From Spirochaetes bacterium ADurb.Bin133 (GTDB taxonomy: Bacteria; Spirochaetota; GWE2-31-10; MWDO01): DNA of 64,000 nt. The stretch lies in contig MWDO01000001.1 of NCBI GenBank assembly GCA_002070605.1, positions 24,886 through 88,885 on the forward strand. The letters run 5' to 3'. The translations under genes and the position numbers were made by a program. Below are positions 1 through 35,600 of this stretch, one piece after another (positions within the stretch are counted from its first letter, which is position 1; every line of letters begins with the position of its first letter). The notes beneath the pieces were generated by a model. That model saw only the letters and a program-made list of their open reading frames with translations. It made no database searches and was not told the DNA's origin.

Positions 1-1011
1 ATCTTTTTTTATTATGCCATCATATTTAATACTGTATGATATTGGGATTGCCGGTACATTTGTAGAAAATGATGAAATTGATGGATGCATCCTTCCCGTT
101 ATAGTAAAAAATCCATTCTTAATTATTTCTCTTGCTTCTGAAGCTAACAAATGATCTTTAATGTAAATTATTCTGTCAGATTTAATATAATCAGAAATTA
201 CATTTATAATATTTAAATCACTTTCCGATAAAGGCTTACACACATGTGGGAATAAAACAATTTTGCAATCGTGAATATTTTGTAAGTTTAATAAATTATT
301 TATTAAAAGTTTCCAATTTTCTAAATATAATTCTTTATACTTACAATATTGTTTCCATGAACCGGATGGTATTATTGTTATGTATTTCTTTTTAATTTTA
401 TATTTACTTAAAACATATTTTTTATTTTCTTCGTTAGGAAGTTCTAAAAATGCCAAATCACTGCTAACAATAAAATTACTAATTTTTAACTCATTAATTA
501 GGTACTCTTTGTTTTTTGAATCTCTTAACGTTATATAACAGTTTTGAAAACATCTTTTCGCGCAATTTTTTCTCCAAGAGTAAAACGGACCTATAGTTTG
601 ACCTATTAGATAAACATTTGTAAATTTACTTAATTTTCTAATTATTAATAAATCTGTTATTATTGTCCACTTTTTATAATACTCGCTTAAGCCATCGCCG
701 CCCAAAAAAACTATTTTATCAAATTTTTCATTTTTTATTTGATTTATATGATTTAAAAGTTTGTTTTTAACTCCTATAATTTTATCAATTAAATTTTTTG
801 ATTTTATGCTTTTATTAAATTCAAATCTATTGATTTTTATCTCCGAGGGTAATTCGCTTTTTAGTCTAAATAGATCGTCTTCAGAATTTAGCGTTATGTA
901 ATAAGACAGATTACTATCCTTTTTATGGGTATAATAAACAAAATTAATTAACAGCATGAAAGCGCCATAGTTATAAGTATTCTCACCCTGTAATATCAAT
1001 ACTTTGGTCAT
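1..1011 (-). CDS. Polysaccharide pyruvyl transferase family protein, 5' part; the gene continues beyond the window start
   Basis: My own reverse-strand translation from the ATG at 1009-1011 shows no stops through to position 1. It contains the motifs LIGQTIGP and ITGRMHPSI, typical of the CsaB/WcaK pyruvyl-transferase family. The ATGA start overlaps the stop of the downstream ORF. It is not in the ORF track because it runs off the edge. Confidence 0.5.
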   Translation of the reverse strand, partial: MTKVLILQGENTYNYGAFMLLINFVYYTHKKDSNLSYYITLNSEDDLFRLKSELPSEIKINRFEFNKSIKSKNLIDKIIGVKNKLLNHINQIKNEKFDKIVFLGGDGLSEYYKKWTIITDLLIIRKLSKFTNVYLIGQTIGPFYSWRKNCAKRCFQNCYITLRDSKNKEYLINELKISNFIVSSDLAFLELPNEENKKYVLSKYKIKKKYITIIPSGSWKQYCKYKELYLENWKLLINNLLNLQNIHDCKIVLFPHVCKPLSESDLNIINVISDYIKSDRIIYIKDHLLASEAREIIKNGFFTITGRMHPSISSFSTNVPAIPISYSIKYDGIIKKD

Positions 1012-1490
1012 TTTAACATCCTTTTTAGCATTTTTTTTAGTTTATTTAATAAATATGCTGATTTTTTAATTTTTAAAAATTTATTTTCAACATATTCATA
1101 GCCATATTTAAAATAATTTCTAAAAAATAGTTTTCTTTTTCGTATTTCATAGTTTTTATATTTTCCGGAAATTATTCTTGGATTACCTTTAACAATTTCA
1201 TTAAAATATGTTGGCTTAACAAATAAACGATATTTAACTCTGTTAAAAATTGAATTTCCTTTTATTGAATATTTAAATACTTCCTTAATTATTTTTAAGT
1301 CTATATGAAATGTTTTTTCTTTTAAAAAAATTATAAATAAGATTGTTATAATAACATAATAAAAATTGTAACCTACAACCCCCCCATATATACTAAAATA
1401 TTTAACAAAAAAATATGTTAATACTATTGAAATTACGCCTCTCCAGAAAACATCAATCATCAAATGCTTGTGCTTTACTAACACTCTCAA
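1008..1490 (-). CDS. Hypothetical small membrane protein of the glycan locus
   Basis: 160 aa with two N-terminal hydrophobic helices and a Lys-rich tail. It is translationally coupled to the neighbouring genes. It contains a G7/C7 homopolymer at 1379-1385 inside the coding sequence. Confidence 0.4.
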   Translation of the reverse strand: MRVLVKHKHLMIDVFWRGVISIVLTYFFVKYFSIYGGVVGYNFYYVIITILFIIFLKEKTFHIDLKIIKEVFKYSIKGNSIFNRVKYRLFVKPTYFNEIVKGNPRIISGKYKNYEIRKRKLFFRNYFKYGYEYVENKFLKIKKSAYLLNKLKKMLKRMLK

Positions 1491-1519
1491 TCCTTACTTT
1501 TTCATCTTGAAATTAGCTA

Positions 1520-2548
1520 TTAACTTACTATCTTGGGCGCTTTTATTTTTAAAAAAATATCATCTTTTACTACTCTTTTAGATTGAACCGCTTTCCTTTT
1601 CCTTATTACCAATTTTATATTTTTAATAAACGTATAATGTCCAAAAAAAAATGTTGATATTATAAAAATATTTTTTCGTTGAATAGCCTGTTTGAGAGTT
1701 TTCAAAAAAGCAAAACCGCTAAAGCATAGTAAAGAAAAACATAAATTTTTAAATTTATAATTGACGAATATATTTGATAAGTGCGAGTATATCATATTTT
1801 TCCATTTAAAAATAAACACATCATCAGACTTACTATTATTTACGCCCAAATGAATATTCGATGATTCTGAAAATAAATAATTTTTATAACCATATAGGAT
1901 AGCCTTAATTCCTATGTCAGTATCATCGCCGCTGTAAATTAAATCATTATCATATCCTCCAATTTGTCCCCATAAATCTATATGAAAAAATAAGTTTGCG
2001 CCATGAGGAAATCCAATTTCAATCCCATTTAACTTTTTTAAATCTTCATTATTAATTTTTTTATTATAATTGATAAAAGTACTGCAAAAAAATCCGCCAT
2101 AATATCCCGATTTCGAGTATTCTTTTTCTACTAATGAAATGCTTACAAAACCCGGATTATTTAATTTCCTATAAAAATTTAACAACTTTTTTATCAAACT
2201 TGCATCTTCAATAAGCGCATCATTATCTAATAACAATATATATTCTCCGGTTGCTTTACTAATAGCAAAATTACAGGCAAAATTTTTCTCTTTAAATCTT
2301 GGACTTTGCAACAATCTAATGTTATTAAATGAACGAATATATTCTATACTTCCATCTGAAGATCCATTATCAACTACTATGACTTCTAGGTTATTGTAGT
2401 CTAATTTCATAATTCCCGGTAGCGTTGTTTCCAAATATTTTTTCCCGTTAAAATTAAGTACAACAATAGAAACTTTTGTATTCTTCAATATTTGCTCCCA
2501 TAATAATAATTTGTCCTGGTCAAGCATTTTTGTAACACTTTTTTCCAA
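1520..2548 (-). CDS. Family 2 glycosyltransferase
   Basis: VVLNFNGKKYL...VVDNGSSDGS plus a DxD motif (LLDNDA), which is the GT2 (GT-A) signature. Confidence 0.8.
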   Translation of the reverse strand: MEKSVTKMLDQDKLLLWEQILKNTKVSIVVLNFNGKKYLETTLPGIMKLDYNNLEVIVVDNGSSDGSIEYIRSFNNIRLLQSPRFKEKNFACNFAISKATGEYILLLDNDALIEDASLIKKLLNFYRKLNNPGFVSISLVEKEYSKSGYYGGFFCSTFINYNKKINNEDLKKLNGIEIGFPHGANLFFHIDLWGQIGGYDNDLIYSGDDTDIGIKAILYGYKNYLFSESSNIHLGVNNSKSDDVFIFKWKNMIYSHLSNIFVNYKFKNLCFSLLCFSGFAFLKTLKQAIQRKNIFIISTFFFGHYTFIKNIKLVIRKRKAVQSKRVVKDDIFLKIKAPKIVS

Positions 2549-2650
2549 GAATATCTATTAAAATTCTCTTTTCTCGCTTTACGCAAAAAAGCCAATACCT
2601 ACCAATAGCGCCTGAATTAGTAGCATAAGGAAATGTTATTGTTCGAATTT

Positions 2651-3510
2651 TCATGCTTTTACCTTCTTTTTCATCAAGTATTCAACCACGCCTATATCTA
2701 AATCTTTTTCTGATACAGTGTTAAGTTTAATTTTTTTCCTTGGAATATCCAAATTATATCTCCACAGTTTTTGATCCAACAATTCAAAATAATTACTAAA
2801 AAGTTGAATCCAATCGCTATGTCGAAGCCTGTTTGTATAACTTACACCTTCTTTAACTAAATATTTTTCCCAAACTTTATTTGAATATTTATAAAATAAA
2901 AATGGAGAATCGAAATTATAATGATCTCTCAAATCAATACGGCTAAAAACCAGACCTCCTTCATTCAAACAATTATACACCCCCAATATTGTCCCTTCAT
3001 AATTTTTAATATGTTCAAACACGCTTATACTTATAACTAAATCCGCCTTACAATTTAAATTTATATTACTTATATCGCCGGAAATATACTCAATTTTATC
3101 TTCTAAAAAATTTAGCCGGTCGTCTGTCTGTCTGTCTGTAAGCAAAATATTTTATCTTTATTTTTTTCTCTAAAATATGATAATTCTTCTTGAAAAAATA
3201 ATTTCTGTTTTTTATTTGTATAATTTCGCGGAAATTTATCTAATAGAATTACTTTTCTAGCTCCTGCTTGTAAAAAATTATATGCGTTTATATAAGAGTT
3301 TCCAGATCCCAATTCCATTACTACTTTATCTTTAATATCAAAATTTTGCCTACTCAAAAGTTCTTTTATATTGGGAAAGTAACTATCAATTATTTGACAA
3401 TTACTTGTATACCTTTTCCAAAAAAACAATCGATTTAATCTCATTTTTACATATAAAAATCTTATGATAAAATCAAATTTGATCAATATTAAATTAATTA
3501 ATTTTTTCAT
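2651..3510 (-). pseudogene. Class I SAM-dependent methyltransferase split into two ORFs (3112..3510 N-terminal, 2651..3145 C-terminal) at a tetranucleotide repeat; candidate phase-variable gene, currently out of frame
   Basis: The N-terminal ORF carries motif I (MELGSGNSY...ARKVILLD). The C-terminal ORF carries the post-I methyltransferase core (DLVISISVFEHI...LNEGGLVF). Both ORFs read through the same (CAGA)4 tract, translated as QTDRQT. Adding one repeat unit fuses them in frame. Confidence 0.7.
3123..3139. repeat. (TCTG)4 tetranucleotide simple-sequence repeat at the methyltransferase frameshift point
   Basis: Read directly: cgTCTGTCTGTCTGTCTGta. The only tetranucleotide microsatellite I found in the window. 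Confidence 0.9.
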
Positions 3511-4561
3511 TCAAACTCCTCCTATATAATTTATCCAATTCAACCGTATACTCATCTAACGAATACTTCTTAACATTCTCTTTTCCCGCTTCTACAAGCC
3601 GTTTTCTCAACTTTTCATCATTGTATAAGCGAGTTATCTTGTTTGCCAAATCATTTATATTCTTTGCTTCAAACATTAAACAATCAACTTGATCATTTAT
3701 AACTTCGTTTAATCCGGGAACATTAGATGCAATTACCGGAACGCCCATTGCTTGAGCTTCTAATTGAGTTAATCCCATTGGCTCAAAATGAGAAGGTATC
3801 ACAAAACAATCCAAACTATTATAAAATGATACCATATCCCTTACATTACCAAGGTATATAATGTTTGGATTATTATCTTTAGATATAAGATCATTTAATT
3901 TATTTGAGTCATTTCCATCTCCGGCAATTTTAAAAAAAATATTAGCATTGTTTTTAGCTATCAACATAGCGACATTATAAAAATCTAACCATCCTTTTCT
4001 AATTTCTAATCTGGCTGCGAATCCAACAGTAAACGTTTTCTTGCTTTCTAATTTTTCACAAATTTTTTTTTCCATGCTAAATAAAGTAATTGGATTATAA
4101 ATGATAGATATTTTATTTTTTGGTATTTTTGCATAGTTAATAAGCAATTTTTCTGTTGCTTTAGAAATAGAAATAAAAAAACTTACAAATTTATTAGAAA
4201 ATTTCAGAAATAAATTATAACTTTTTTTATTCAAGAAAATTTCTCCATGTTCATGAAATATAAGAAATAGTTTATTATTTAAAAAAATCTTTATAATTAA
4301 ACTCAATAGTTGAGATTTAAATAAGTGACAATGAATTATTTCTATTTGATTTCTTTTGATTATTTTTGAAATTTCAAATACAGATAATAAATTAAACTTT
4401 CCTCGACTTTTGGGAAATATAACATTATTTATTTGAATAATATTTGGTATTTTATTATTCAACCCTAAAAAAATATCATCGCTTCGTTTAGTTTGTATTC
4501 CTGCGATTATTCTTTGAGCGCCGCCGATACCATTATGATCAAAAATATGTAATACGTTCAT
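3494..4561 (-). CDS. Family 4 (GT-B) glycosyltransferase
   Basis: C-terminal EPMGLTQLEAQAMGVPVIASNVPGLNEVI, the GT4 EX7E-type motif. Confidence 0.8.
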   Translation of the reverse strand: MNVLHIFDHNGIGGAQRIIAGIQTKRSDDIFLGLNNKIPNIIQINNVIFPKSRGKFNLLSVFEISKIIKRNQIEIIHCHLFKSQLLSLIIKIFLNNKLFLIFHEHGEIFLNKKSYNLFLKFSNKFVSFFISISKATEKLLINYAKIPKNKISIIYNPITLFSMEKKICEKLESKKTFTVGFAARLEIRKGWLDFYNVAMLIAKNNANIFFKIAGDGNDSNKLNDLISKDNNPNIIYLGNVRDMVSFYNSLDCFVIPSHFEPMGLTQLEAQAMGVPVIASNVPGLNEVINDQVDCLMFEAKNINDLANKITRLYNDEKLRKRLVEAGKENVKKYSLDEYTVELDKLYRRSLNEKIN

Positions 4562-4637
4562 TTTCTACAACTTCCCCGAAAATTCTAAAATAAAGGCAAA
4601 AGCGCTTCGTTGTTTAACTGGCGAATTATACAATTCA

Positions 4638-6077
4638 TTATCTTTCACAATGTCCCTTCCATCCTTTAGAAGCTGCAAAATTTAAATTTAGATTTTTCCA
4701 ATCAATATTTGAATTAACTATAATCTCGTCATGGTTAAATTGGGTTAATTTAAAATATTTTTCTTTAAAACCTTCTCTGATTTTAGGAATTTTTATAAAG
4801 TTAAATCCCATTATATAACTTGCAACATAATCCACGGCAACAGGATGAAATCCTCCAATAAGAACTCCGCATTTCTTGGGGTAACCATCCATTGGTCCCT
4901 CTTTATCCATACCGATAATTCCGTCAATTATTGTCATATATTTCCTTTGCTGCGTTTCTTTCATTTCCCCATTTTTATTAGCAAAAAAGATAATATTATT
5001 CAAATCAAGAATTGTACGCCATATTGTATCGTTCCCATACCAATTTCCCTCCATAGTAGTTCCGCCATAAATAGCCCCATGTTCTTTTATTGTTTTACCC
5101 TTAAGGAAAATAATCCGAAATAGTTTTTTTAAAAGCGTATTGAAAAAATTTGGCATATACAGTTTACTATAATAATTTACGCGCCATTTTATAAATTCTT
5201 TTAGATTAAATTTCTCATATTCGTCAACTCCTCTTCGATGATGAGCAATCCATGATTTATCGCCATTTATACCGATAAGATTTTTCAAAGAAAGTGTAAC
5301 GCCTGCCTTTCTATGAGTTTTTAATTTTGGAACATTTATAAACAAATCAGCGTCAAGAATTGTTTTCGGAATTAGATATTCGTTTTTTTCATAGTTATGG
5401 CGCTTAGATACAGTTCCAATACCGTAATTGGTTATTTCAAGTTTTCTATAATCTTTAATTATTTCCTGTATATAACTCTTTTTTTTTAAGTCCACAGCCA
5501 AATAGCCTTTTGGATCTTGCGCCTTTTTTATTCTTTTATAATGGTGACCTTCCTTGTTTGATATTGCTATTTCATATCTTAAATCAAGTAAATTTATTTT
5601 AATTTTTTTTGAATCATAATACTTTACTAAATCTTTAAGTCCGTTTTGCTCTATCAAATTATCCCAATCAGCGTTTTGTAAAGGAACGTCGCAAATAGTA
5701 ATTAAACAATTATTATCTGTCGCTTTTAGCGCATAATCAATTACTGGTCTAATAATTGAGGCATGAGCGACCATAGATAAAATCCCCTCTAATCCAAATG
5801 GATGATTGTCAAAGACTAAATTGGGTTTTATAACTACATTATCGCCTTTTTCTACAATATTTTTTAATGGATTCCAGAATTTTGTATTATAATTTTCTTT
5901 ATCTAGACCTAGATTAAATAACAAGTTTCTTATTAGCGGATATATATTATTTAAGGTATCAGTCTCATATTCTAATTCTTCTAATTCAAATTCCGGATAA
6001 ATTTCAGGAGGATTAAACGGAGCTTTTGGATATTCTAAAGTTTCTGATTTTATTAACGATACTAATTTTTGATCCAA
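4638..6077 (-). CDS. DUF362 domain protein
   Basis: The C-terminal IIDGIIGMDKEGPMDGYPKKCGVLIGGFHPVAVDYVASYIMGF matches the DUF362 signature. It sits in the glycan locus. Confidence 0.5.
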   Translation of the reverse strand: MDQKLVSLIKSETLEYPKAPFNPPEIYPEFELEELEYETDTLNNIYPLIRNLLFNLGLDKENYNTKFWNPLKNIVEKGDNVVIKPNLVFDNHPFGLEGILSMVAHASIIRPVIDYALKATDNNCLITICDVPLQNADWDNLIEQNGLKDLVKYYDSKKIKINLLDLRYEIAISNKEGHHYKRIKKAQDPKGYLAVDLKKKSYIQEIIKDYRKLEITNYGIGTVSKRHNYEKNEYLIPKTILDADLFINVPKLKTHRKAGVTLSLKNLIGINGDKSWIAHHRRGVDEYEKFNLKEFIKWRVNYYSKLYMPNFFNTLLKKLFRIIFLKGKTIKEHGAIYGGTTMEGNWYGNDTIWRTILDLNNIIFFANKNGEMKETQQRKYMTIIDGIIGMDKEGPMDGYPKKCGVLIGGFHPVAVDYVASYIMGFNFIKIPKIREGFKEKYFKLTQFNHDEIIVNSNIDWKNLNLNFAASKGWKGHCER

Positions 6078-6078
6078 A

Positions 6079-7371
6079 TTAAACCTCGCTCCTTACATAT
6101 TCATACTTGCCGTTTTTCAACGGATCAATCTGATTTACTATATTCCATTTAATAAAGCAATCAGAATCTCCAAATTCAAGTTTAATCGACTTTTCAATAT
6201 TTTTCTTCTCTTTATCAAACCGATCTAAATTTTTTATAACTACATTAATCTCTAGATAATCAATTTTTTTTTGAATAACTTGAAATTTTGAAATTCCTGA
6301 GTCATTATGAACAACTCCGATAAAATGAATAAAAAATTCAGCCGGAATTATTTTGTTTAAATTAGTTCTAATTGCTGACATTTCTCTTCCTTCAACATTA
6401 GAAAAGGCTAATCCATCTGATGATAGTTTGCCGATATCTCCTATATCATATCTAATGAAAGGCATTGAGTAGTTATTTAACGCAGTTACATATATTTTGT
6501 TATCAATTACTTCTATGTAATGGTTCCAAAGAGATAATTTTAACTCCCCTGTTCCGCATGCCATATCTCCAACTTCGCGAGAGCCATACCTATTATATAC
6601 TTTGCATTTAAAAACCTCTTCGATTTTTTCTCTCATTTCAGGAAACAAAGTGCCTGCCGATGTAAGTATGCCATTTTTTGGCGAATGTATTTTCAGATTA
6701 TTATTTTCAATAAACTTTGCAAACTCAAATATTGATTGAACATAGCTTTCTACCCAGCATGGTTTATATTTATTCCACTTTTTTACATATTCAAGCATAT
6801 CTTTTTCTGACATTTTAAAAGTGTTAAACTCTTTTCTGTTATATAACCAATTTCTAAGCCGAATTGAGAGTTTTTCTCTGCCTTCAAGCAGATCTCTTTC
6901 AGATCCCCAAAATCGTAATTCCTTCATCCCCGGCTGTTGACCGGCCTTTAACTTGACATAAATCTTATTAGCAATATTCCAGTCGCTATAGTACTTATCC
7001 TGTAAAAATCTAACCGGTTCTCCCGTTGAACCGCCTGAAGTATTCTCATAAACGCCTTTTCTTTTTTCTTTAGAGTAAAGATTTGTTCCCTCTTGTCTCA
7101 TTATATCTTTTGTTAAAAAAGGTAGTTTTTTGAAATTATCAAGTTCGACTTTTCCGTTTTTTATTATGTCGCTATCATCAAATACCTTTTTGTAGTATGG
7201 TACATTTTTATATGCGTATTGTAATATATCAACAATTTTTTCTCTTTGATACTTTTTTATATCATTCTCGCTATATTTCGAAATTTTAATAATCTCTTTT
7301 ATGTTCCTATGAATATCAGAGCCTGATAAATTTAACATAGCATATATAATAGGTTTTCGCCAGTTTATCAA
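6079..7371 (-). CDS. CapK / phenylacetate-CoA ligase-like adenylate-forming enzyme (F390 synthetase family)
   Basis: YENTSGGSTGEPVRF AMP-binding P-loop. About 430 aa, typical of CapK-type capsule proteins. Confidence 0.7.
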   Translation of the reverse strand: MINWRKPIIYAMLNLSGSDIHRNIKEIIKISKYSENDIKKYQREKIVDILQYAYKNVPYYKKVFDDSDIIKNGKVELDNFKKLPFLTKDIMRQEGTNLYSKEKRKGVYENTSGGSTGEPVRFLQDKYYSDWNIANKIYVKLKAGQQPGMKELRFWGSERDLLEGREKLSIRLRNWLYNRKEFNTFKMSEKDMLEYVKKWNKYKPCWVESYVQSIFEFAKFIENNNLKIHSPKNGILTSAGTLFPEMREKIEEVFKCKVYNRYGSREVGDMACGTGELKLSLWNHYIEVIDNKIYVTALNNYSMPFIRYDIGDIGKLSSDGLAFSNVEGREMSAIRTNLNKIIPAEFFIHFIGVVHNDSGISKFQVIQKKIDYLEINVVIKNLDRFDKEKKNIEKSIKLEFGDSDCFIKWNIVNQIDPLKNGKYEYVRSEV

Positions 7372-8507
7372 TTTTTAACGCCTCCGTATGTTTCTATGTA
7401 TTTTTCGGCGCATTTCTTCCAACTCATCGTTTCAGCTTTAAGTCTACTATTATAACCCATTTTGGTTAATAAGTCTCTGTTATTATACAACAAATTAAGA
7501 CTATCTGTTATTGCCTTTTTTGATTCTTTTTGAATAATTATTCCATTTGATTCGTCAATTAGTTCTTTTGTTCCGCCCGTATCGGTTGCAAGTATAGCAA
7601 GTCCTGACGCCATAGCTTCTAATAATGCGTTGCTCATCCCTTCGTTTAGAGAGGGTAAGCAAAAAACATCGGAACTCTGATAATGTTTAGGAAGATTATC
7701 ATGATTTATCTTCCCAAGAAACTCTATTTTATCCTTTTCGCCGTTTTCACTTACAAGACTAATCAATTCTTCCTTTTGATTTCCATCTCCTATTACTATT
7801 AGTTTAACGTCATTTTTTCCTTTTGCAAATTCAATAAATCCGTCTATGAGATATTGAATTCCCTTTCTTTTAATCAATCTGGAAGTCGATATTACTGTAA
7901 AAATATTGCTCTCAATAACTCGAGGCTTAAATTCTTCTATATCTACGCCGTTATAAATAACTGAAATTATTTGATCGGGAGCAGTCTGTAAAGCCAGATT
8001 TTTCAAACCTTCCGAGTTTGTTATTACCGCATTTGATTTTTTCCATATCTTTATACTAAGTTTTTTAAAAAGTAATACATCTAAAAGTTTAAATCTTTTA
8101 TTATAAAAAGGTACATCGCTACCTCTTAGCGACACAATATAAGGCATTCCTAATTTCATTGCTATATAACCGCATGGAATGCCAAAAAAGGCATGAACAA
8201 GATCATATTTGTTGTTTTTCTTAAGATTTTTGCAAAAACTAAGGGCTTTAAAACTATAGGTTAATAAGTCTTTGTTCGATTGATAATGTATATTATCTTT
8301 TTTTCCAATATCTAAAAAATAAATTTTAATTTTATTAGAAAAAGATTCTTCGCGATAAGTATTTGTAGAGGATGTTACGAAGTCAACGGATATATTATCA
8401 TTTTTTGATAATTCTTTTAATATATATTTTGTAGCGTTAGCCGCCCCTCCCCCCAACGGCGGAAACTCGTAGTTTAGCATGAGTATTTTTAGTTTTTTAT
8501 TAGTCAT
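7368..8507 (-). CDS. Family 4 glycosyltransferase
   Basis: EGMSNALLEAMASGLAILATDTGGTKELI, a GT4 motif. Confidence 0.8.
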   Translation of the reverse strand: MTNKKLKILMLNYEFPPLGGGAANATKYILKELSKNDNISVDFVTSSTNTYREESFSNKIKIYFLDIGKKDNIHYQSNKDLLTYSFKALSFCKNLKKNNKYDLVHAFFGIPCGYIAMKLGMPYIVSLRGSDVPFYNKRFKLLDVLLFKKLSIKIWKKSNAVITNSEGLKNLALQTAPDQIISVIYNGVDIEEFKPRVIESNIFTVISTSRLIKRKGIQYLIDGFIEFAKGKNDVKLIVIGDGNQKEELISLVSENGEKDKIEFLGKINHDNLPKHYQSSDVFCLPSLNEGMSNALLEAMASGLAILATDTGGTKELIDESNGIIIQKESKKAITDSLNLLYNNRDLLTKMGYNSRLKAETMSWKKCAEKYIETYGGVKN

Positions 8508-8650
8508 AATGTTTGCCTAAATTTAATAATAATGGGTCAGATATAGTATCTGAAGAGTTATAAATAGTTTCAGGGTCTATATCTATACAGTTATAAGATA
8601 ATATTAGCGCGCTTTTCGATTTTATTCAAGGTTTTTTGTTTATTTCCGTA

Positions 8651-8700
8651 ACCCGTCGATTTTTTGGGGAAACAAATTGACACATATGCGTCGAATTTAT
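8651..8700 (+). repeat. Solo left end of the MITE-like CATATG repeat family
   Basis: cccgtcgattttttggggaaacaaattgacacatatgcgtcgaattt matches the left terminal repeat of the full 21775-22012 element. Confidence 0.6.
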
Positions 8701-8732
8701 TTCCTTCCCCCCAAAATACCGACGGAGATCTT

Positions 8733-9662
8733 TCAATTCTCCACAATCTCCTTGACGCTGTACGACGAGTCGTTTGTCGTTTCGTAATAGCTTTTTGACA
8801 GCATATCGGCGATAAGTCCCGAAGTAAACAGTTGTATGCCGGTTAATCCCAGGAATACGGTCAAAATAGGCCACGCCGAGTCGGACATACTGACTCCTCG
8901 AAAGAATTGTACTACGGTAGCGCAGCCGGATAAGGCTCCAAGGAGTATAAAAAATATACCGATACCGCCGAGCAGATGAAGCGGTCTGACCGCGTATTTA
9001 TTCCAAAACCAGACGGATATCATATCGATAAAGCCTTTTACCGTTCTTTTCCAGTTGTATTTGGTCTTTCCCGCGGTCCTAGGGCGGTGATTAACCTCGA
9101 TTTCTCCGACCCTAAACCCTTTTATTTCAAGGATCGCGGGTATAAATCTGTGCATCTCGCCGTATAAACTTATAGACTCAAAGCACTCCTTTTTATAAAT
9201 TTTTAGAGAACAGCCGCTGTCGTGTATTCCGTCGTTAATAATTATTTTTCGTAAAAAATTCGCGCCGCGCGACGTAAACTTTTTGATTATAGTATCTTTT
9301 CTTCGTCTTCTCCAGCCCGACACTACGTCCAGATCGTTTGATTCTAGATGTTTGATAAGATTAGGAATATCGTTCGGATCGTTTTGTCTGTCTCCGTCTA
9401 TCGTAACTATATATTTATACTTTGCCTCTTTTATTCCGGCGTCCATCGCGGCGGTTTGACCGAAGTTTCTCCTAAGACGAATATATTTTATCGGAGAGAG
9501 ATTCTTCGCTATCTGATAAGTTCCGTCTGTCGAACCGTCGTCGACAAATATTATTTCATAAGTATATCTATTAGCTTCGCAGGTCTCCTTTATTTCTCTA
9601 TGAAGTTCAGCGACGTTGTCTTTTTCGTTAAAAATTGGCGCTACTATCGATATTTCCGGCAT
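8733..9662 (-). CDS. GT2 polyprenyl-phosphate sugar transferase (GtrB/ArnC/DPM1-like) with C-terminal TM helices
   Basis: ISIVAPIFNE...FVDDGSTDGT...DGDRQNDP, followed by two C-terminal hydrophobic helices. Confidence 0.8.
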   Translation of the reverse strand: MPEISIVAPIFNEKDNVAELHREIKETCEANRYTYEIIFVDDGSTDGTYQIAKNLSPIKYIRLRRNFGQTAAMDAGIKEAKYKYIVTIDGDRQNDPNDIPNLIKHLESNDLDVVSGWRRRRKDTIIKKFTSRGANFLRKIIINDGIHDSGCSLKIYKKECFESISLYGEMHRFIPAILEIKGFRVGEIEVNHRPRTAGKTKYNWKRTVKGFIDMISVWFWNKYAVRPLHLLGGIGIFFILLGALSGCATVVQFFRGVSMSDSAWPILTVFLGLTGIQLFTSGLIADMLSKSYYETTNDSSYSVKEIVEN

Positions 9663-23903: not shown

Positions 23904-25085
23904 CTATTTATCAAAAAGAGACAATCTCAACTCTTTTATTTTATTATTAAACTCAATGTTCATAGGACCGGTAATAAGGTTTTTGTATCTTATTTCAATC
24001 AAATCGGTTCTGCCGGTTTCAGAATATATTTTAAACTCTTTATACTTTTCTCTCTTATCGTTAGTATCTGTTTTGACGTTGTCAAATTTATTATCGTCCT
24101 TGATATTGCCCCAATTTAGATGATACGCTTTACCGTTGAGCCATAGCTTAGTCCCAACCGGCAACGAGAGAATAATATATTTTTGAGCGGTTAGCGGAGC
24201 GGTAATATTTTGATTTGAAGTTAAATTAATGTTTGTTCTATAGTCTAAGTACCCCTCGGACTTTACGGTTACGCTATACGCCGCCGGTTGCAATGATACG
24301 TTTAAAGGGGTTTTGCCGTATAACTTATTATTTATATACACGTCCGCTCCGGCGATATTAGACGACACGGAGAGAGTATAACTGCTGGGAGTCAAGTTTG
24401 CATTAATATTTTGGTTAGAATTGAGAGTAACGTTCGACGCAAAATCGGTATATCCGGCAAGTTTTACAGTTACATTATAATTAGCCGACGGCAAAGAGAC
24501 GTTGAGCGGAGTCTTTCCGTATGGTTGGTTATTTATATATACGTCCGCGCCGGAGATATTAGACGACACGGAGAGATTATAACTAATAGGAGCGAAATTT
24601 GCGTTAATATTTTGGTTAGAATTTAGAGTAACGTTCGATACAAAATCGGTATATCCGGCAAGTTTTACAGTTACGTTATAACTAGCCGACGGCAAAGAGA
24701 CGTTGAGCGGAGTCTTTCCGTATGGTTGATTATTTATATATACGTCCGCGCCGGCGATATTAGACGACACGGAGAGATTATAATTAATTTGAGGCGCGGC
24801 TAGCGGTTCGAGAGTTACATTTAAATCTCCGGTACCGGCTTTATAACTAATAGTTTTTGATTGATAGCCGTCTTTAGTAAAAACAAAAACATACGTTCTA
24901 TTTCTTAATAACGGAATGGTAACCGGCGTAGGACCGAATTTATTGACTTTGTCGCTTTCCGTAGAAAAGTAAATCCCCGAAGGATTTGTAACGACTTTAA
25001 CGTAAACCGTGCTTGCGCTTCTCTGAGCAAACAGATTAGACGATAGCAAAAAAGCAATAAACAGCAAATAGTAAATTTTTTTCAT
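23904..25085 (-). CDS. Secreted protein with four tandem PEGA domains
   Basis: The unit AGADVYINNQPYGKTPLNVSLPSASYNVTVKLAGYTDF (PEGA signature) is repeated. Three of the units are nearly identical at DNA level, forming about 204-bp tandem repeats across 24190-24790. Signal peptide present. Confidence 0.75.
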   Translation of the reverse strand: MKKIYYLLFIAFLLSSNLFAQRSASTVYVKVVTNPSGIYFSTESDKVNKFGPTPVTIPLLRNRTYVFVFTKDGYQSKTISYKAGTGDLNVTLEPLAAPQINYNLSVSSNIAGADVYINNQPYGKTPLNVSLPSASYNVTVKLAGYTDFVSNVTLNSNQNINANFAPISYNLSVSSNISGADVYINNQPYGKTPLNVSLPSANYNVTVKLAGYTDFASNVTLNSNQNINANLTPSSYTLSVSSNIAGADVYINNKLYGKTPLNVSLQPAAYSVTVKSEGYLDYRTNINLTSNQNITAPLTAQKYIILSLPVGTKLWLNGKAYHLNWGNIKDDNKFDNVKTDTNDKREKYKEFKIYSETGRTDLIEIRYKNLITGPMNIEFNNKIKELRLSLFDK

Positions 25086-32602: not shown

Positions 32603-35600
32603 TTACTTTACCTCGCCGGTCGATATATCTATCGCCGCTATTCTGCCTCTAATCTTACCCCCTATAGTAGTAAAATAACCGCCAACATAGACGTTACTTC
32701 CAGAGACAGCCAAGGTATAAACTACGCCGCTAGCGTTTGGATTCCAATCCGTCGCTAAACCGGTAGTTATATCTATAGCCGCTATTCTACTTCTCGTCTG
32801 ACCCCCTATAGTAGTAAACCAGCCGCCCACATAGACGTTACTACCCGACGCAGCCAAGGTAGAAACTGTCCCATCAGCGTTGGGATTCCAATCCGTCGCT
32901 AAACCGGTCGATATATCTATAGCCGCTATATTACTCCTACTCTTACTCCCTATCGTAGTAAAATCGCCGCCCACATAGACGTTACTACCAGATACAGCCA
33001 AGGTAATAACTTCACCATTAGCGCTTGGATTCCAATCCGTCGCCAAACCGGTAGTTATATCTATAGCCGCTATATAATTCCTACTCTGGCCCCCTATAGC
33101 AGGAAACCAGCCGCCGACATAGACGTTACTACCCGATACAGCCAAGGTATTAATTGTATAGATAGCGTTTGGATTCCAATCCGTCGCTAAACCGGTAGTT
33201 ATATCTATAGCGGCTATATAATTCCTACTCTTACCCCCTATAGCAGTAAAATCGCCGCCGACATAGACGTTACTTCCAGACACAGCCAAGGTATTAACAC
33301 TAGTATCGTGGTTGTCGCCGCTAGCGTTTGGATTCCAATCCGTCGCCAAACCGGTCGATATATCTATAGCCGCTATATTACTCCTACTCTTACCCCCTAT
33401 AGCAGTAAAATGGCCGCCGACATAGACGTTACTACCCGATACAGCCAAGGTAGAAACGCTAGCATAATCGTCGCTACTAGCGTTGGGATCCCAATCCGTC
33501 GCTAAACCGGTAGTGATATCTATAGCGGCTATATTACTCCTACTCTGGCCCCCTATCGTAATAAAACTACCGCCGACATAGACGTTACTACCAGATACAG
33601 CCAAGGTATTAACGTAAGCATGATCGCCGCTAGCGTTTGGATCCCAATCCGTCGCCAAACCGGTAGTTATATCTATAGCCGCTATATTTCTCCTACTCTT
33701 ACCCCCTATCGAGTCAAAATTACCGCCGACATAGACGTTACTTCCGGACACAGCCAAGGTATAAACGTGAGCATAATAATCGCCGCTAGCGTCGGGATTC
33801 CAATCCGTCGCTAAGCCCGTCGTTATATCTATAGCGGCTATATAATTCCTACTCTTACCCCCTATAGTAGTAAAATCTCCGCCGACATAGACGTTACTAC
33901 CCGACGCAGCCAAGGTATAAACGTAATAGCTAGCGTTTGGATTCCAATCCGTCGCCAAACCGGTAGTTATATCTATAGCCGCTATTCTATTCCTCGCCTT
34001 ACCCCCTATCGAGGTAAAATAACCGCCGACATAGACGTTACTACCCGATACAGCTAATGCCCTAACCGCCCTGTCAGCGTTTGGATTCCAATCCGTCGCC
34101 AAACCGGTAGTTATATCTATAGCCGCTATTCTATTCCTCGCCTTACCCCCTATCGAGGTAAAATAACCGCCGACATAGACGTTATTTCCGGACACAGCCA
34201 AGGTATAAACTTCGCCGTTAACGTTGGGATTCCAATCCCTAACCGAGCCGTCGGAGTTTATCCACGCTATTCTATTCCTTGTATATGCGCCGACTTGCGT
34301 AAATCCGCCTCCTATAATCCAGCCGCCGCCTCCGTCTGATATTACGCGCCTAATTGAGCCGTTAACTGCGGGGAAATTTGCATCCTCATAATCGCTCGAC
34401 ATATCGAGTAACGCGCCTTGAGTAAATCTGCCGACTCGACTAAAACTCCCCCCTATATACAATATCCCGTCTTTCTGAACCATACAATTAATATTTCCAT
34501 CCGTTCCGATACCGTCTTTGCCGATATTTACTACCGTAGGATCTGTATCCCCCTGTTTCATATCGTAACAAGCCGTATTTCCAGCCGCATCTTTTACTAT
34601 CGCGTTAAAGTAATACGACTTTTTTTCAGATAACCCCGTCATATTATAACTTGTATTGGACGACCACTCCATAGCGACTATCCCGTTTGTCTCGCAACCG
34701 GTAACATCCCAGAGATTATCCGTCGTAGAGTAGTAGAGTTTATACTGTAGCGGTCCGTTATCGTCTGTAGCTTCGCCCCAGTTTACGGTAAAACCGCTTG
34801 TCGTCGTATTTGAAAACCATATAGCGCCGCCAATAACCGGCGGAGTAGTTTCTAAAACAAATTTATTTGAAGTAGCTTTTGATTCGTTACCCTTACCGTC
34901 GATAGCGTATATATGAAGGTAATAATCGCCGTCTCCGGTAGATCGACAAAGAGTATCTCCCGACGTAAATTGCGTCCAGGTCCCTTCGGCTGGAAAAGTC
35001 GCCGATTGAGTCCACTGATATTTGGGATAGCCCTCCGCCATACCGCTCTGATCGGTTACCGTTACGTCAGTAGTTTGCTCTTTTTGAGGAGCAACATTGC
35101 CGTTTCTACCAAAGGTTATTGAAGGAGGGTCGCATTTAGCGCTCGCTTCATTACTATACGCCGAACTCCCAAAACTATTTACCGCTTTTACTCTATAGTA
35201 ATATGTCGTCCCGATTACCGCCGTCGTATCGTCAAAAGTAGTCGTATTTGCGCTTAACGGCGTTGCGTCCGTCCCGCCGAGAGCAGAATACCCGCTTCCC
35301 GAACTCTCGCTTCTCTCCACTACAAAGCCCGTCTCTACTTTAGAGTTATCCGTCCAGTCGAGGACTATCTTGTTGTATCCCTCCGCCGCAGTCAAACCCG
35401 AAGGGGCGTTCGGAGCTTTGTCAAAATCGTTAGTAGTTAAAGTTATAGTTTTCGTAGTCGAATGATAGTCGTAAATATGAACGCTTTCAATTACCGAAGA
35501 CAACATTTTACCATTTTTCATCAACTTGAATATATATTTATAAAATCCGGACGAGACCGAGCCGTTTGCGTAATTAACGCTCGACCCGCCTGTAAAAATA

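What the first reader, a model, noticed from the sequence alone, without database searches (positions are those of the whole stretch)
3112..3145. (TCTG)4 tetranucleotide tract splits a glycan-locus SAM methyltransferase: candidate phase-variable ON/OFF switch
The N-terminal methyltransferase ORF (3112..3510) and the C-terminal ORF (2651..3145) both translate the same (CAGA)4 tract as QTDRQT, but in different frames. I checked the arithmetic on the sequence. Inserting one more TCTG unit (5 units), or deleting two, gives a continuous methyltransferase reading ...DKIFCLQTDRQTDDRLNFLEDKIEYISGDIS... Tetranucleotide slipped-strand tracts inside surface-glycan modification genes are the classic phase-variation mechanism in Haemophilus and Neisseria. 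This is the only such microsatellite I found in the window. It lies in a compositionally foreign glycan locus, which suggests reversible O-methylation of a surface polysaccharide.
Basis: partly seen in the sequence, partly recalled or inferred. Interest (0 to 1): 0.72.

Follow-up and report, generated by a model that had tools for sequence, protein, structure and literature searches.

The report
Repeat-tract on/off switch in glycan methyltransferase
A four-letter DNA repeat inside a sugar-coat methyltransferase gene of an uncultured spirochaete occurs as 4, 5 or 6 copies in otherwise identical public assemblies, and only 5 copies give an intact gene, so it behaves like the slippage switches known from pathogens.

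Summary
A pure (CAGA)4 tract (sense strand; window 3122-3139) frameshifts a 287-aa class I SAM methyltransferase into 132-aa and 164-aa ORFs. Alleles with 2, 5 or 8 units restore one frame.

Among 23 contigs of the same species (22 public contigs plus the window), 15 carry 4 units (OFF), 2 carry 5 (ON) and 6 carry 6 (OFF). The ON product is exactly the predicted 287-aa protein. Flanks are almost identical. One 4-versus-5 pair has 0 mismatches in 7.4 kb, and one 4-versus-6 pair has 0 in 4.6 kb. The tract is the only indel in up to 16.8 kb, and lengths 4 and 6 both occur on two SNP backgrounds.

The repeat encodes a predicted disordered loop that varies in length among homologues, and no homologue carries a repeat there. 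The gene belongs to a widely spread GT2-GT4-methyltransferase-CapK-like glycan module.

Best reading: a slipped-strand ON/OFF switch of a polysaccharide-modifying methyltransferase, mostly OFF in the sampled assemblies. Switching rate, mixtures within one sample, substrate and phenotype are not shown. It is a new member of a known kind (compare C. jejuni cj1426 and H. influenzae lgtC).

The parts
3122..3139 (-). Pure tetranucleotide tract. It reads (CAGA)4 plus AC on the sense strand and GTCT x4.5 on the + strand. This is the slippage-prone switch element, with 4 units here (OFF).
   Evidence: The same site has 5 or 6 units in other contigs.
2651..3510 (-). Complete class I SAM-dependent methyltransferase gene (Methyltransf_23). 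It is frameshifted in this allele and would encode 287 aa with 5 units.
   Evidence: arithmetic. (Pfam PF13489, 37.1 bits against cut-off 27, for the joined protein). (homologues of about 280 aa are continuous across the junction). (natural 287-aa allele P0129).
3112..3510 (-). OFF-state N-terminal product, 132 aa. It holds predicted strands 1-2 and the SAM-binding motif I (ELGSGNS), then ends 2 codons after the tract.
2651..3145 (-). C-terminal reading frame, 164 aa from a TTG inside or next to the tract. It holds the rest of the Rossmann fold. I saw no Shine-Dalgarno sequence upstream, so it is probably not translated on its own.
   Evidence: In 6-unit alleles gene callers find only a 123-aa remnant.
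3494..4561 (-). GT4 glycosyltransferase directly upstream. Its end overlaps the methyltransferase start by 17 nt, which suggests one operon and translational coupling.
1520..2548 (-). GT2 glycosyltransferase directly downstream. It could be affected by polarity when the methyltransferase is OFF (inference).
1..9662 (-). Low-GC polysaccharide biosynthesis locus on one strand. The gene order is GT2, GT4, CapK-like ligase, DUF362, GT4, methyltransferase, GT2, small membrane protein. It continues beyond the window start with a pyruvyl transferase, a TPP enzyme, an SDR and a protein with only a faint MatE match (possibly a flippase).

Best explanation
The (CAGA)n tract is a slipped-strand-mispairing hotspot inside a SAM-dependent methyltransferase gene of a polysaccharide biosynthesis operon. 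It works as a translational ON/OFF switch of the contingency-locus type.

Gain or loss of one 4-nt unit during replication moves the downstream two thirds of the gene in or out of frame. Five units (also 2 or 8) give the full 287-aa enzyme. Four or six units give a 132- or 140-aa stub that has the SAM-binding motif I but lacks the rest of the Rossmann fold, so no activity is expected.

In every frame the repeat encodes (Q-T-D-R)n. It lies in a disordered, length-tolerant surface loop, so ON alleles of different length should stay functional.

The likely consequence is presence or absence of a methyl group on a cell-envelope glycan made by this locus, giving heritable but reversible surface heterogeneity. 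The most plausible selective agents are phages or grazers in the mixed communities sampled.

Shown here: the tract, the frame logic, natural 4/5/6-unit alleles on near-identical backgrounds, the methyltransferase fold and the glycan-locus association.

Inferred: slippage as the mutational mechanism, reversibility at a useful rate, the substrate, the phenotype and the selective agent.
For: 1. Frame logic was verified.

2. Natural alleles: the 132-aa (4 units), 287-aa (5 units) and 140-aa (6 units) products are all present in one 90%-identity cluster, with exactly the predicted sequences. At DNA level 23 contigs carry 15x 4, 2x 5 and 6x 6 units.

3. Localised hypermutability.
- L002 (5 units) against the window (4 units): 7,447 bp, 0 mismatches, one 4-nt gap.
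- L005 (6 units) against L013 (4 units): 4,582 bp, 0 mismatches, one 8-nt gap.
- L003 against L001: 16.8 kb, 6 mismatches, one 4-nt gap.
- Only 5 genuine SNP sites occur in 6.3 kb across all contigs.
- In a control stretch of 21 kb between two of the same strains there are 12 mismatches and 0 indels. The A10, T10 and C7 runs do not vary.

4. Homoplasy. Lengths 4 and 6 each occur on both alleles of the SNP at -260 (Cys38/Tyr38). Across the four haplotypes formed with the SNP at +1413 the lengths are G,C: 4 and 5; G,T: 6; A,C: 4 and 6; A,T: 4.

5. Tolerant position. Residues 124-130 fall in the pLDDT<50 segment 125-134 of a model with mean pLDDT 83. Homologues vary in length there.

6. The tract is lineage-specific. 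No repeat occurs in the methyltransferase gene of any of the 28 homologue loci.

7. Glycan role. The gene overlaps a GT4 and sits among GT2, GT4, CapK-like and pyruvyl transferase genes. Relatives of the same GT2, GT4 and CapK-like genes (43-60% identity) flank homologues in CPR bacteria, archaea and Gammaproteobacteria, most often in the order GT2-GT4-methyltransferase-CapK-like.

8. Precedent. A phase-variable capsule 6-O-methyltransferase, cj1426, alters phage sensitivity in C. jejuni (PMC3417653). (GACA)n, a circular permutation of CAGA, drives lgtC in H. influenzae (PMC3938747).
Against: - Only 4-6 units were seen. The window allele is below the cut-off of 5 or more units commonly used for tetranucleotides, and mutation rates of such short tracts may be too low for efficient switching.
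- 21 of 23 contigs are OFF.
- The two retrieved ON contigs, plus a JGI contig that was listed but not retrieved, may come from one biological sample. Several other contigs are probably re-assemblies of the same reads, so the number of independent samples is below 23.
- No allele with 2, 3, 7 or 8 units exists in the 15-billion-protein collection.
- No read-level data were available, so mixtures within one sample are not shown.
- All four combinations of the two flanking SNPs occur, so recombination could explain part of the apparent homoplasy.
- No second such locus lies in the 64-kb window, so there is no sign of a wider set of phase-variable genes.
- Substrate specificity is unknown. There is no PDB sequence hit, only generic class I methyltransferase folds and a weak BioC match.
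Confidence: 0.6

Rival explanations
1. Incidental mutational hotspot with gene loss. The 5-unit allele is ancestral and functional. The repeat is a chance microsatellite at which -1 and +1 unit slips have repeatedly inactivated a gene that is dispensable or costly in these habitats. There is no adaptive back-and-forth switching, only convergent pseudogenisation.
For: - 21 of 23 contigs are OFF, and the 4- and 6-unit alleles are each one step from 5.
- The tract is short.
- No other such locus lies in the window.
- The ON allele may come from only one biological sample.
Against: - A pure 16-nt tetranucleotide run with 50% GC in a region of about 28% GC is expected about 0.01-0.03 times per 64 kb.
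- OFF alleles carry no secondary damage. The 4-unit window is identical to an ON contig over 7.4 kb, and the 6-unit contigs differ from the 4- and 5-unit contigs by at most a few SNPs, so every OFF allele is one slip from ON.
- The tract lies in a disordered loop where in-frame length change is tolerated, as expected if ON states of various lengths must work.
- The mechanism is intrinsically reversible.
- The data cannot separate this rival from true phase variation without read-level or rate data.
Confidence: 0.3
2. Sequencing or assembly artefact. The gene is really intact and the length differences are errors.
For: All data are metagenome assemblies. Repeats can in general be mis-assembled.
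Against: - The tract (16-24 nt) is far shorter than a read or a typical assembly k-mer.
- Each length was recovered in several contigs from different sources (JGI, ENA, Logan, NCBI).
- Differences are always whole 4-nt units, and nothing else differs.
- Homopolymers nearby, which are more error-prone, do not vary.
Confidence: 0.03
3. The 4-unit allele is expressed anyway, either by programmed -1 ribosomal frameshifting or transcriptional slippage, or as two separately translated halves that assemble.
For: The two ORFs overlap by 34 nt, and a TTG opens the second ORF at the tract. An A-AAA-AAT heptamer lies 30 nt upstream.
Against: - A -1 slip at A-AAA-AAT runs straight into TAA in the new frame.
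- The only productive shift window is about 40 nt around the tract, and it has no X-XXY-YYZ site (read directly).
- RNA-polymerase slippage is known for long homopolymers, not for tetranucleotide units (my own knowledge).
- No Shine-Dalgarno sequence precedes the TTG.
- The split cuts the Rossmann fold between strands 2 and 3.
- In 6-unit alleles the TTG is out of frame, so gene callers find only a 123-aa remnant.
Confidence: 0.03
4. It is a phase-variable DNA methyltransferase (a phasevarion, like mod of Haemophilus or Neisseria), not a glycan-modifying enzyme.
For: The mod genes also carry tetranucleotide repeats within the coding sequence (PMC2667262, listed).
Against: - Pfam matches only small-molecule-type class I families (Methyltransf_23, 11, 12 and 31) and no DNA methyltransferase family.
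- Structural neighbours are NNMT, BioC, OvoM and similar small-molecule enzymes.
- The called genes of the locus show no restriction enzyme or helicase domain.
- The gene is embedded in glycosyltransferase genes, and this context is conserved across phyla.
Confidence: 0.02

Closest known systems
Campylobacter jejuni cj1426, the phase-variable capsule 6-O-methyltransferase, and other phase-variable SAM methyltransferases in Campylobacter glycan loci
   Same: A SAM-dependent methyltransferase inside a surface-polysaccharide locus is switched ON/OFF by length change of an intragenic simple repeat. The OFF state is a premature stop just after the tract. In C. jejuni the methyl group changes phage susceptibility (PMC3417653; PMC6321876).
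   Different: There the repeat is a poly-G run of 8-11 bases, and here it is a tetranucleotide of 4-6 units. The proteins were not compared here and need not be homologous. That organism is a cultured gut pathogen with about 30 such loci. Here it is an uncultured spirochaete known only from metagenome assemblies, with one locus seen in 64 kb. Switching and phenotype are measured there and only inferred here.
Haemophilus influenzae LOS contingency loci with tetranucleotide repeats (lgtC with GACA; lic1A, lic2A and lic3A; lex2 and oafA with GCAA)
   Same: Tetranucleotide slippage inside glycan biosynthesis or decoration genes acts as a three-phase translational switch. The lgtC unit GACA is a circular permutation of the CAGA unit here (PMC3938747).
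   Different: Haemophilus tracts are much longer (for example 43 GACA units in one strain), with measured, length-dependent rates (De Bolle 2000, cited). They usually lie near the 5' end (my own knowledge). Here the tract has 4-6 units at codons 124-130 of 287. The enzymes differ: glycosyl-, sialyl-, phosphocholine- and acetyltransferases there, a methyltransferase here.
Short intragenic repeats causing frequent reversible loss of function in Staphylococcus aureus
   Same: Short coding-sequence repeats, below classical contingency-locus lengths, produce recurrent, convergent and reversible frameshifts that can be detected by comparing many genomes (bioRxiv 10.1101/2025.07.08.663602).
   Different: The reporter assays there used adenine homopolymers of 5-9 bases in a cultured pathogen, with measured rates. 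Here the repeat is a tetranucleotide and the evidence comes only from comparing assemblies.
Phase-variable type III mod DNA methyltransferases (phasevarions)
   Same: A methyltransferase gene carries a tetranucleotide repeat inside the coding sequence.
   Different: The substrate class and fold family differ. No DNA methyltransferase family was matched and no restriction partner was seen. The context here is glycosyltransferases.

Membership tests
Repeat-mediated phase-variable (contingency) locus | A simple sequence repeat lies inside the reading frame (or promoter) of one gene. | tested here: met
   (CAGA)4 at codons 124-130 of the methyltransferase gene.
Repeat-mediated phase-variable (contingency) locus | Change in unit number toggles between a full-length and a truncated product. 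| tested here: met
   2, 5 or 8 units give 283, 287 or 291 aa. 1, 3, 4, 6 or 7 units give stops at aa 128-140. The natural products of 132, 287 and 140 aa match exactly.
Repeat-mediated phase-variable (contingency) locus | Tract length is polymorphic among very closely related genomes while the flanks are conserved (localised hypermutation). | tested here: met
   4, 5 or 6 units in 23 contigs. Flanks have 0-2 genuine SNPs per 6.3 kb and no other indel in up to 16.8 kb. Two pairs have 0 mismatches and differ only in the tract.
Repeat-mediated phase-variable (contingency) locus | Repeat number is above what composition predicts and above empirical hypermutability cut-offs (5 or more units for tetranucleotides in PhasomeIt). 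| tested here: inconclusive
   The tract exceeds chance (0.01-0.03 expected per 64 kb). The window allele (4 units) is below the cut-off, and the 5- and 6-unit alleles reach it.
Repeat-mediated phase-variable (contingency) locus | High-frequency reversible switching within a clonal population (roughly 1e-5 or more per generation). | not testable with these tools
   No reads or cultures were available. The only indirect hint is recurrence of lengths 4 and 6 on two SNP backgrounds.
Repeat-mediated phase-variable (contingency) locus | The gene product affects a surface or interaction phenotype. | not testable with these tools
   Context only: a glycosyltransferase operon and a conserved GT2-GT4-methyltransferase-CapK-like module.
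Class I SAM-dependent methyltransferase (Pfam Methyltransf_23 and 11) | The sequence matches the family profile above the curated threshold. | tested here: met
   PF13489 at 37.1 bits (cut-off 27) and PF08241 at 25.0 bits (cut-off 21.2) for the joined protein.
Class I SAM-dependent methyltransferase (Pfam Methyltransf_23 and 11) | Rossmann-like alternating strand-helix fold with a glycine-rich motif I after strand 1 and an acidic residue after strand 2. | tested here: met
   AlphaFold2 model with pLDDT 83 and pTM 0.85, showing strands at 63-67, 86-91, 141-145, 157-163 and 183-194. E66-L-G-S-G-N-S and D91 align with nearly invariant columns. Foldseek gave E about 1e-10 to NNMT, BioC, OvoM and other class I methyltransferases.
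Sugar or polysaccharide O-methyltransferase | Demonstrated methyl transfer to a glycan hydroxyl, or close homology to a characterised enzyme of that kind. | tested here: not met
   No PDB sequence hit. NCBIfam gave only weak sub-threshold BioC, UbiG and CmoB matches. Structural neighbours are small-molecule methyltransferases with 10-16% identity. The glycan target rests on gene neighbourhood alone, and the chemistry (O-, N- or carboxyl-methylation) is open.
Phasevarion-type DNA methyltransferase (mod) | DNA methyltransferase motifs, a target-recognition domain and a partner res gene. | tested here: not met
   No DNA methyltransferase Pfam family was matched. Neighbours are glycosyltransferases.

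The most novel reading that the evidence does not exclude
A true contingency locus works in an uncultured spirochaete that is not a known pathogen, using only 4-6 tetranucleotide units. It toggles a core enzyme of a glycan module that is shared by horizontal transfer among CPR bacteria, archaea (including Pacearchaeota, Nanoarchaeia and Altiarchaeales), Spirochaetota and Proteobacteria. If so, stochastic surface switching, presumably against phages, would not be a speciality of host-adapted pathogens, and it could be discovered and quantified directly from public metagenome assemblies and reads.
Probability: 0.4. Interest if true: 0.6.

Novelty: new member of a known kind. Interest (0 to 1): 0.5.

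Why it matters
Repeat-driven phase variation has been studied almost only in cultured, host-adapted pathogens. A 2025 review discusses where it has not yet been looked for (PMC11868660). Here a tool-free prediction from one sequence was confirmed by natural allelic variation in public assemblies of an uncultured spirochaete (NCBI names: Spirochaetes bacterium ADurb.Bin133 / Spirochaetota bacterium MAGs).

If switching is confirmed at read level, three things follow:
- There would be a concrete, trackable marker of surface heterogeneity, and probably of phage-host dynamics, in this uncultured organism.
- It would show that very short tetranucleotide tracts can act as switches.
- It would give a functional handle on an uncharacterised glycan module (GT2-GT4-methyltransferase-CapK-like) that recurs in CPR bacteria and several archaeal lineages.

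For annotation, the two 'hypothetical proteins' (OQB69910.1 and OQB69909.1) are one phase-OFF gene.

Tried and rejected
- DNA pattern scans. Two scans of the JGI metagenome-contig collection, one gapped across the tract and one with the 28-nt exact flank, returned nothing, although JGI contigs with the locus exist. The collection evidently does not hold these records. I used exact-protein look-ups instead.\n- Other alleles. Exact look-ups of the predicted products for 1, 2, 3, 7 and 8 units, and for the 5-unit allele on the Tyr38 background, found none in the collection.\n- Functional assignment. The PDB sequence search gave 0 hits. NCBIfam gave only sub-threshold BioC, UbiG and CmoB matches. 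Foldseek against the PDB gave generic class I methyltransferases. No specific substrate assignment is possible.\n- Sister species. The genome-contig scan with the family alignment did not return this species itself, probably because motif I here is GSG rather than GPG. It returned only relatives with 48% identity or less, so tract state in sister species could not be examined. No close sister lineage is visible in any database searched.\n- Simulation. The first Markov simulation timed out and was redone in a faster form.\n- Literature. A search for 'ADurb.Bin133' found no paper. A search for 'ADurb.Bin' returned 79 papers, and none of the 6 listed looked relevant.\n- Considered and rejected: programmed frameshifting, transcriptional slippage, a functional split enzyme, a DNA methyltransferase phasevarion, and assembly artefact (see the rival explanations).\n- Contig ends. 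Several contigs end 100-400 nt from the tract. This could hint at co-existing alleles within a sample, but the distances do not fit simple assembly-graph bubble geometry, so I left it as inconclusive.
Full report
**1. What is in the sequence**

On the + strand the window reads ...GCCGGTCG TCTG TCTG TCTG TCTG TAAGC.... Tandem Repeats Finder reports GTCT x4.5 at 3122-3139 with 100% matches. A regular-expression scan places (TCTG)4 at 3123-3138.

The gene is on the minus strand, where the tract reads TTA (CAGA)4 CGACC. Two overlapping ORFs meet there:
- 3112..3510(-), 132 aa, ending ...KDKIFCLQTDRQTTG*
- 2651..3145(-), 164 aa, starting at a TTG with MLTDRQTDDRLNFLEDKIEY...

I rebuilt the gene with 1 to 8 units. 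Alleles with 2, 5 or 8 units give one ORF of 283, 287 or 291 aa. All other lengths stop at aa 128-140.

This is the only tetranucleotide run of 4 or more units in the 64 kb. The expected number is about 0.01 under an independent-base model and 0.0275 in 400 first-order Markov simulations.

The locus has lower GC (24-31%) than most of the window (29-44%).

**2. The split gene is one methyltransferase**

The joined protein matches Pfam Methyltransf_23 (37.1 bits, cut-off 27) and Methyltransf_11.

A search of 5.8 billion protein clusters found 180 relatives. Nearly all of the 120 listed are 270-300 aa, share 38-51% identity and cover about 95-98% of the joined protein as one polypeptide. In the alignment they run straight across the junction.

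An AlphaFold2 model (mean pLDDT 83.3, pTM 0.85) shows a Rossmann-like alternation of strands and helices. Foldseek finds class I SAM methyltransferases (NNMT, BioC, OvoM and uncharacterised bacterial enzymes) at E about 1e-10, but with only 10-16% identity.

There is no PDB sequence hit and no NCBIfam equivalog. The fold is therefore certain and the substrate is not.

The OFF product (132 aa) keeps strands 1-2, motif I (ELGSGNS) and D91, and loses everything from strand 3 onward. It should be inactive.

**3. The tract varies in nature, and almost nothing else does**

The 90%-identity cluster of the window's two ORFs has ten members:
- the 132-aa product, in a Cys38 and a Tyr38 version
- a 140-aa product ending ...QTDRQTDRRPAKFFRR, in both versions, which is exactly my 6-unit prediction
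- a 287-aa protein (P0129) identical to my 5-unit prediction
- five C-terminal fragments (164-aa L- and M-start versions, 123-aa V- and M-start versions, and one 169-aa version)

NCBI names for members are 'Spirochaetes bacterium ADurb.Bin133' (OQB69910.1 and OQB69909.1) and 'Spirochaetota bacterium' MAGs.

I fetched the DNA of the carrying contigs and counted units. Among 23 distinct contigs, including the window:
- 15 have 4 units.
- 2 have 5 units (ERZ27257458 k141_153993 and SRR4236662_9160).
- 6 have 6 units (ERZ27249275, JGI 3300036949, JGI 3300036963, SRR11808517, SRR11810703, ERZ27249270).

Aligned without gaps over 3.3 kb upstream and 3.0 kb downstream, each contig differs from the window at 0-2 genuine SNP positions and has no other indel. 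One contig also has a mismatched end, which I treat as a contig-end artefact. Only five genuine SNP sites exist in the whole set.

Direct comparisons:

| Comparison | Length aligned | Mismatches | Gaps |
|---|---|---|---|
| L002 (5 units) vs window (4 units) | 7,447 bp | 0 | one of 4 nt |
| L005 (6 units) vs L013 (4 units) | 4,582 bp | 0 | one of 8 nt |
| L001 (5 units) vs window (4 units) | 13.5 kb | 3 | one of 4 nt |
| L003 (6 units) vs L001 (5 units) | 16.8 kb | 6 | one of 4 nt |

As a control I fetched contigs covering window 18.5-39.5 kb. The strain from JGI sample 3300036949, which carries 6 units, aligns over 21,017 bp with 12 mismatches and no gap. In other strains indels occur only in a long tandem-repeat array of a surface-protein gene, plus two small intergenic indels in a lineage that is 0.5% diverged. 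The A10, T10 and C7 homopolymers do not vary.

The tract is therefore the one short-repeat indel hotspot in roughly 30-40 kb compared.

As a rough estimate (inference), at least 2-4 length changes at one site, against 5 substitutions over 6,300 sites, implies a per-site rate about three orders of magnitude above the substitution rate.

**4. Recurrence**

Two informative SNPs are G/A at -260 (Cys38Tyr) and C/T at +1413. The haplotypes carry these tract lengths:

| Haplotype (-260, +1413) | Tract lengths seen |
|---|---|
| G,C | 4 and 5 |
| G,T | 6 |
| A,C | 4 and 6 |
| A,T | 4 |

Lengths 4 and 6 therefore each occur on both alleles of the -260 SNP. All four SNP combinations exist, so some recombination (or recurrent mutation) has occurred and could explain part of this pattern. 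Even so, at least two length changes are required, and more likely three or more.

Caveat: several contigs are probably independent assemblies of the same reads. The two retrieved ON contigs, plus a JGI contig listed for P0129 but not retrieved, may be one sample. A conservative unit is the distinct sequence type, and there are nine, over which the three tract lengths are spread.

Alleles with 1, 2, 3, 7 or 8 units are absent from the collection.

**5. Where the repeat sits in the protein**

(CAGA)n encodes a Q-T-D-R repeat in all three frames. Residues 124-130 fall within or next to the only long low-confidence segment of the model (125-134, pLDDT<50). This segment lies between helix 100-116 and the helix-strand pair 133-145.

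In the family alignment this stretch is the most length-variable part. Three homologues have deletions there, and the window protein has a 6-residue insertion (DDRLNF) just after the tract.

None of the 28 homologue loci (about 220 kb) has a repeat in the methyltransferase gene. The tract is therefore a lineage-specific acquisition in an insertion-tolerant loop. That position lets ON alleles of different length remain functional.

**6. What the enzyme probably does**

The gene start overlaps the end of a GT4 glycosyltransferase by 17 nt. It is followed by a GT2, a small membrane protein and a polysaccharide pyruvyl transferase. Upstream lie a DUF362 protein, a CapK-like adenylate-forming enzyme, a second GT4 and a GT2.

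Relatives of the window's GT2 (8733), GT4 (7368) and CapK-like (6079) genes, at 43-60% identity, flank the methyltransferase homologue in many of the 28 loci. The most common order is GT2, GT4, methyltransferase, CapK-like. These loci come from Patescibacteria (Magasanikbacteria and an unnamed member), Altiarchaeales and unclassified archaeal MAGs, Gammaproteobacteria and unclassified metagenome contigs. In the window the same genes are present in a rearranged order.

The methyltransferase is thus a regular member of a horizontally spread glycan module. A glycan, or a glycan-linked substituent, is the most likely substrate. This rests on gene neighbourhood only. One distant homologue (P0082) sits in a non-glycan context.

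**7. Mechanism and rivals**

The best reading is a slipped-strand translational switch, as in classical contingency loci. Rivals:
- Incidental hotspot driving convergent gene loss. This cannot be excluded without read-level or rate data. The main arguments for it are that OFF alleles dominate (21 of 23) and that the tract is short.
- Artefact. This is excluded by recovery of each length in contigs from different sources, by whole-unit differences and by invariant homopolymers nearby.
- Programmed frameshifting. The only slippery heptamer nearby (A-AAA-AAT) leads straight to a stop in the -1 frame, and the 40-nt productive window has no slippery site.
- Split enzyme. This is unlikely, because no Shine-Dalgarno sequence precedes the TTG and the cut falls inside the Rossmann fold.
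- DNA methyltransferase phasevarion. No DNA methyltransferase family was matched, and the context is glycosyltransferases.

A possible extra effect (inference) is that premature termination in OFF cells lowers expression of the downstream GT2 and pyruvyl transferase through polarity.

**8. Comparison with known systems**

The closest functional analogue is C. jejuni cj1426. It is a capsule 6-O-methyltransferase switched by a poly-G tract, and its ON/OFF state changes phage susceptibility in chickens (PMC3417653). Several other SAM methyltransferases in Campylobacter glycan loci are also phase-variable (PMC6321876).

The closest mechanistic analogues are the H. influenzae LOS genes with tetranucleotide repeats. 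These include lgtC, whose GACA unit is a circular permutation of CAGA (PMC3938747).

Differences here are the very short tract (4-6 units, against the cut-off of 5 or more used by PhasomeIt and dozens of units in Haemophilus), its mid-gene position, and an uncultured host known only from metagenome assemblies. Short coding repeats acting as reversible loss-of-function switches have recently been reported on a large scale in S. aureus (bioRxiv 10.1101/2025.07.08.663602), which makes short tracts more plausible as switches.

**9. Verdict**

- Observation: confirmed.
- Interpretation: supported in its testable core, namely the frame logic, length polymorphism across strains, existence of the predicted ON allele and the glycan-locus context.
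- Not shown: switching rate, mixtures within one sample, the chemistry and the phenotype.
- Novelty: a new member of a known kind.
- Interest: moderate. The mechanism is textbook, but the organism and habitat, the very short tract and the confirmation from public assemblies alone make it a useful, directly testable case.

Noticed in passing
window 32603-36109 (-), tandem array 32616-34238; also loci L060-L065: A 1168-aa protein with DUF5122 beta-propeller repeats and fn3 domains contains about 11 copies of a 144/156-bp tandem repeat. Its length differs among strains of the same species (865, 1120, 1168 and 1215 aa). This is a second strain-variable region, driven by repeat copy number. I presume it is a surface protein.
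   Followed up: partly
window 36125-37666 (-), tandem repeat 36659-37550 (213 bp x4): The neighbouring 513-aa protein (weak BiPBP_C match) also carries long tandem repeats. The gene or genes called in its place in other strains are 227-513 aa.
   Followed up: partly
window 1379-1385 (+), inside ORF 1008..1490 (-): A C7 run (G7 on the sense strand) lies in a 24%-GC region, inside a 160-aa putative membrane protein of the same glycan locus. It reaches the poly-G/C cut-off used for Campylobacter, but it is invariant in all 15 contigs that cover it.
   Followed up: yes
loci L032, L038-L040, L042, L043, L045, L049; window 2651-9662: A conserved glycan gene module (GT2, GT4, Methyltransf_23 methyltransferase, CapK-like adenylate-forming enzyme) has 43-60% protein identity across CPR bacteria, archaea, Gammaproteobacteria and the window's spirochaete. 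Its product is uncharacterised. The pattern suggests inter-domain horizontal transfer.
   Followed up: partly
loci L010, L016, L017, L022-L024 (about 1.2 kb downstream of the tract, which corresponds to roughly window 1925-1940 inside GT2 gene 1520..2548): Three distinct public contigs, seen under six locus ids, end within about 15 nt of each other inside the downstream GT2 gene. This suggests a strain-variable junction or recombination breakpoint in the glycan locus.
   Followed up: no
window 30.5-32.4 kb and 37.7-39.5 kb (L060 12109-13274 and 17859-18834): Small toxin-antitoxin-like genes (a HEPN and nucleotidyltransferase pair, a HicB-like antitoxin, a ParE-like toxin) flank the variable repeat-protein genes.
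   Followed up: no
window 18.5-32.3 kb versus L060, L061 and L066: A second lineage of the species, about 0.5% diverged (75 mismatches in 13.8 kb), exists in JGI 3300010344, JGI 3300010342 and ERZ27257436. None of these samples appeared among the contigs carrying the methyltransferase, so that lineage may carry a different glycan locus.
   Followed up: no
window 23904-25085 (-), tandem repeat 24327-24788 (201 bp x2.3): A 393-aa protein with three PEGA domains accounts for the 201-bp tandem repeat. Its length is conserved (393 aa) in all strains examined.
   Followed up: partly
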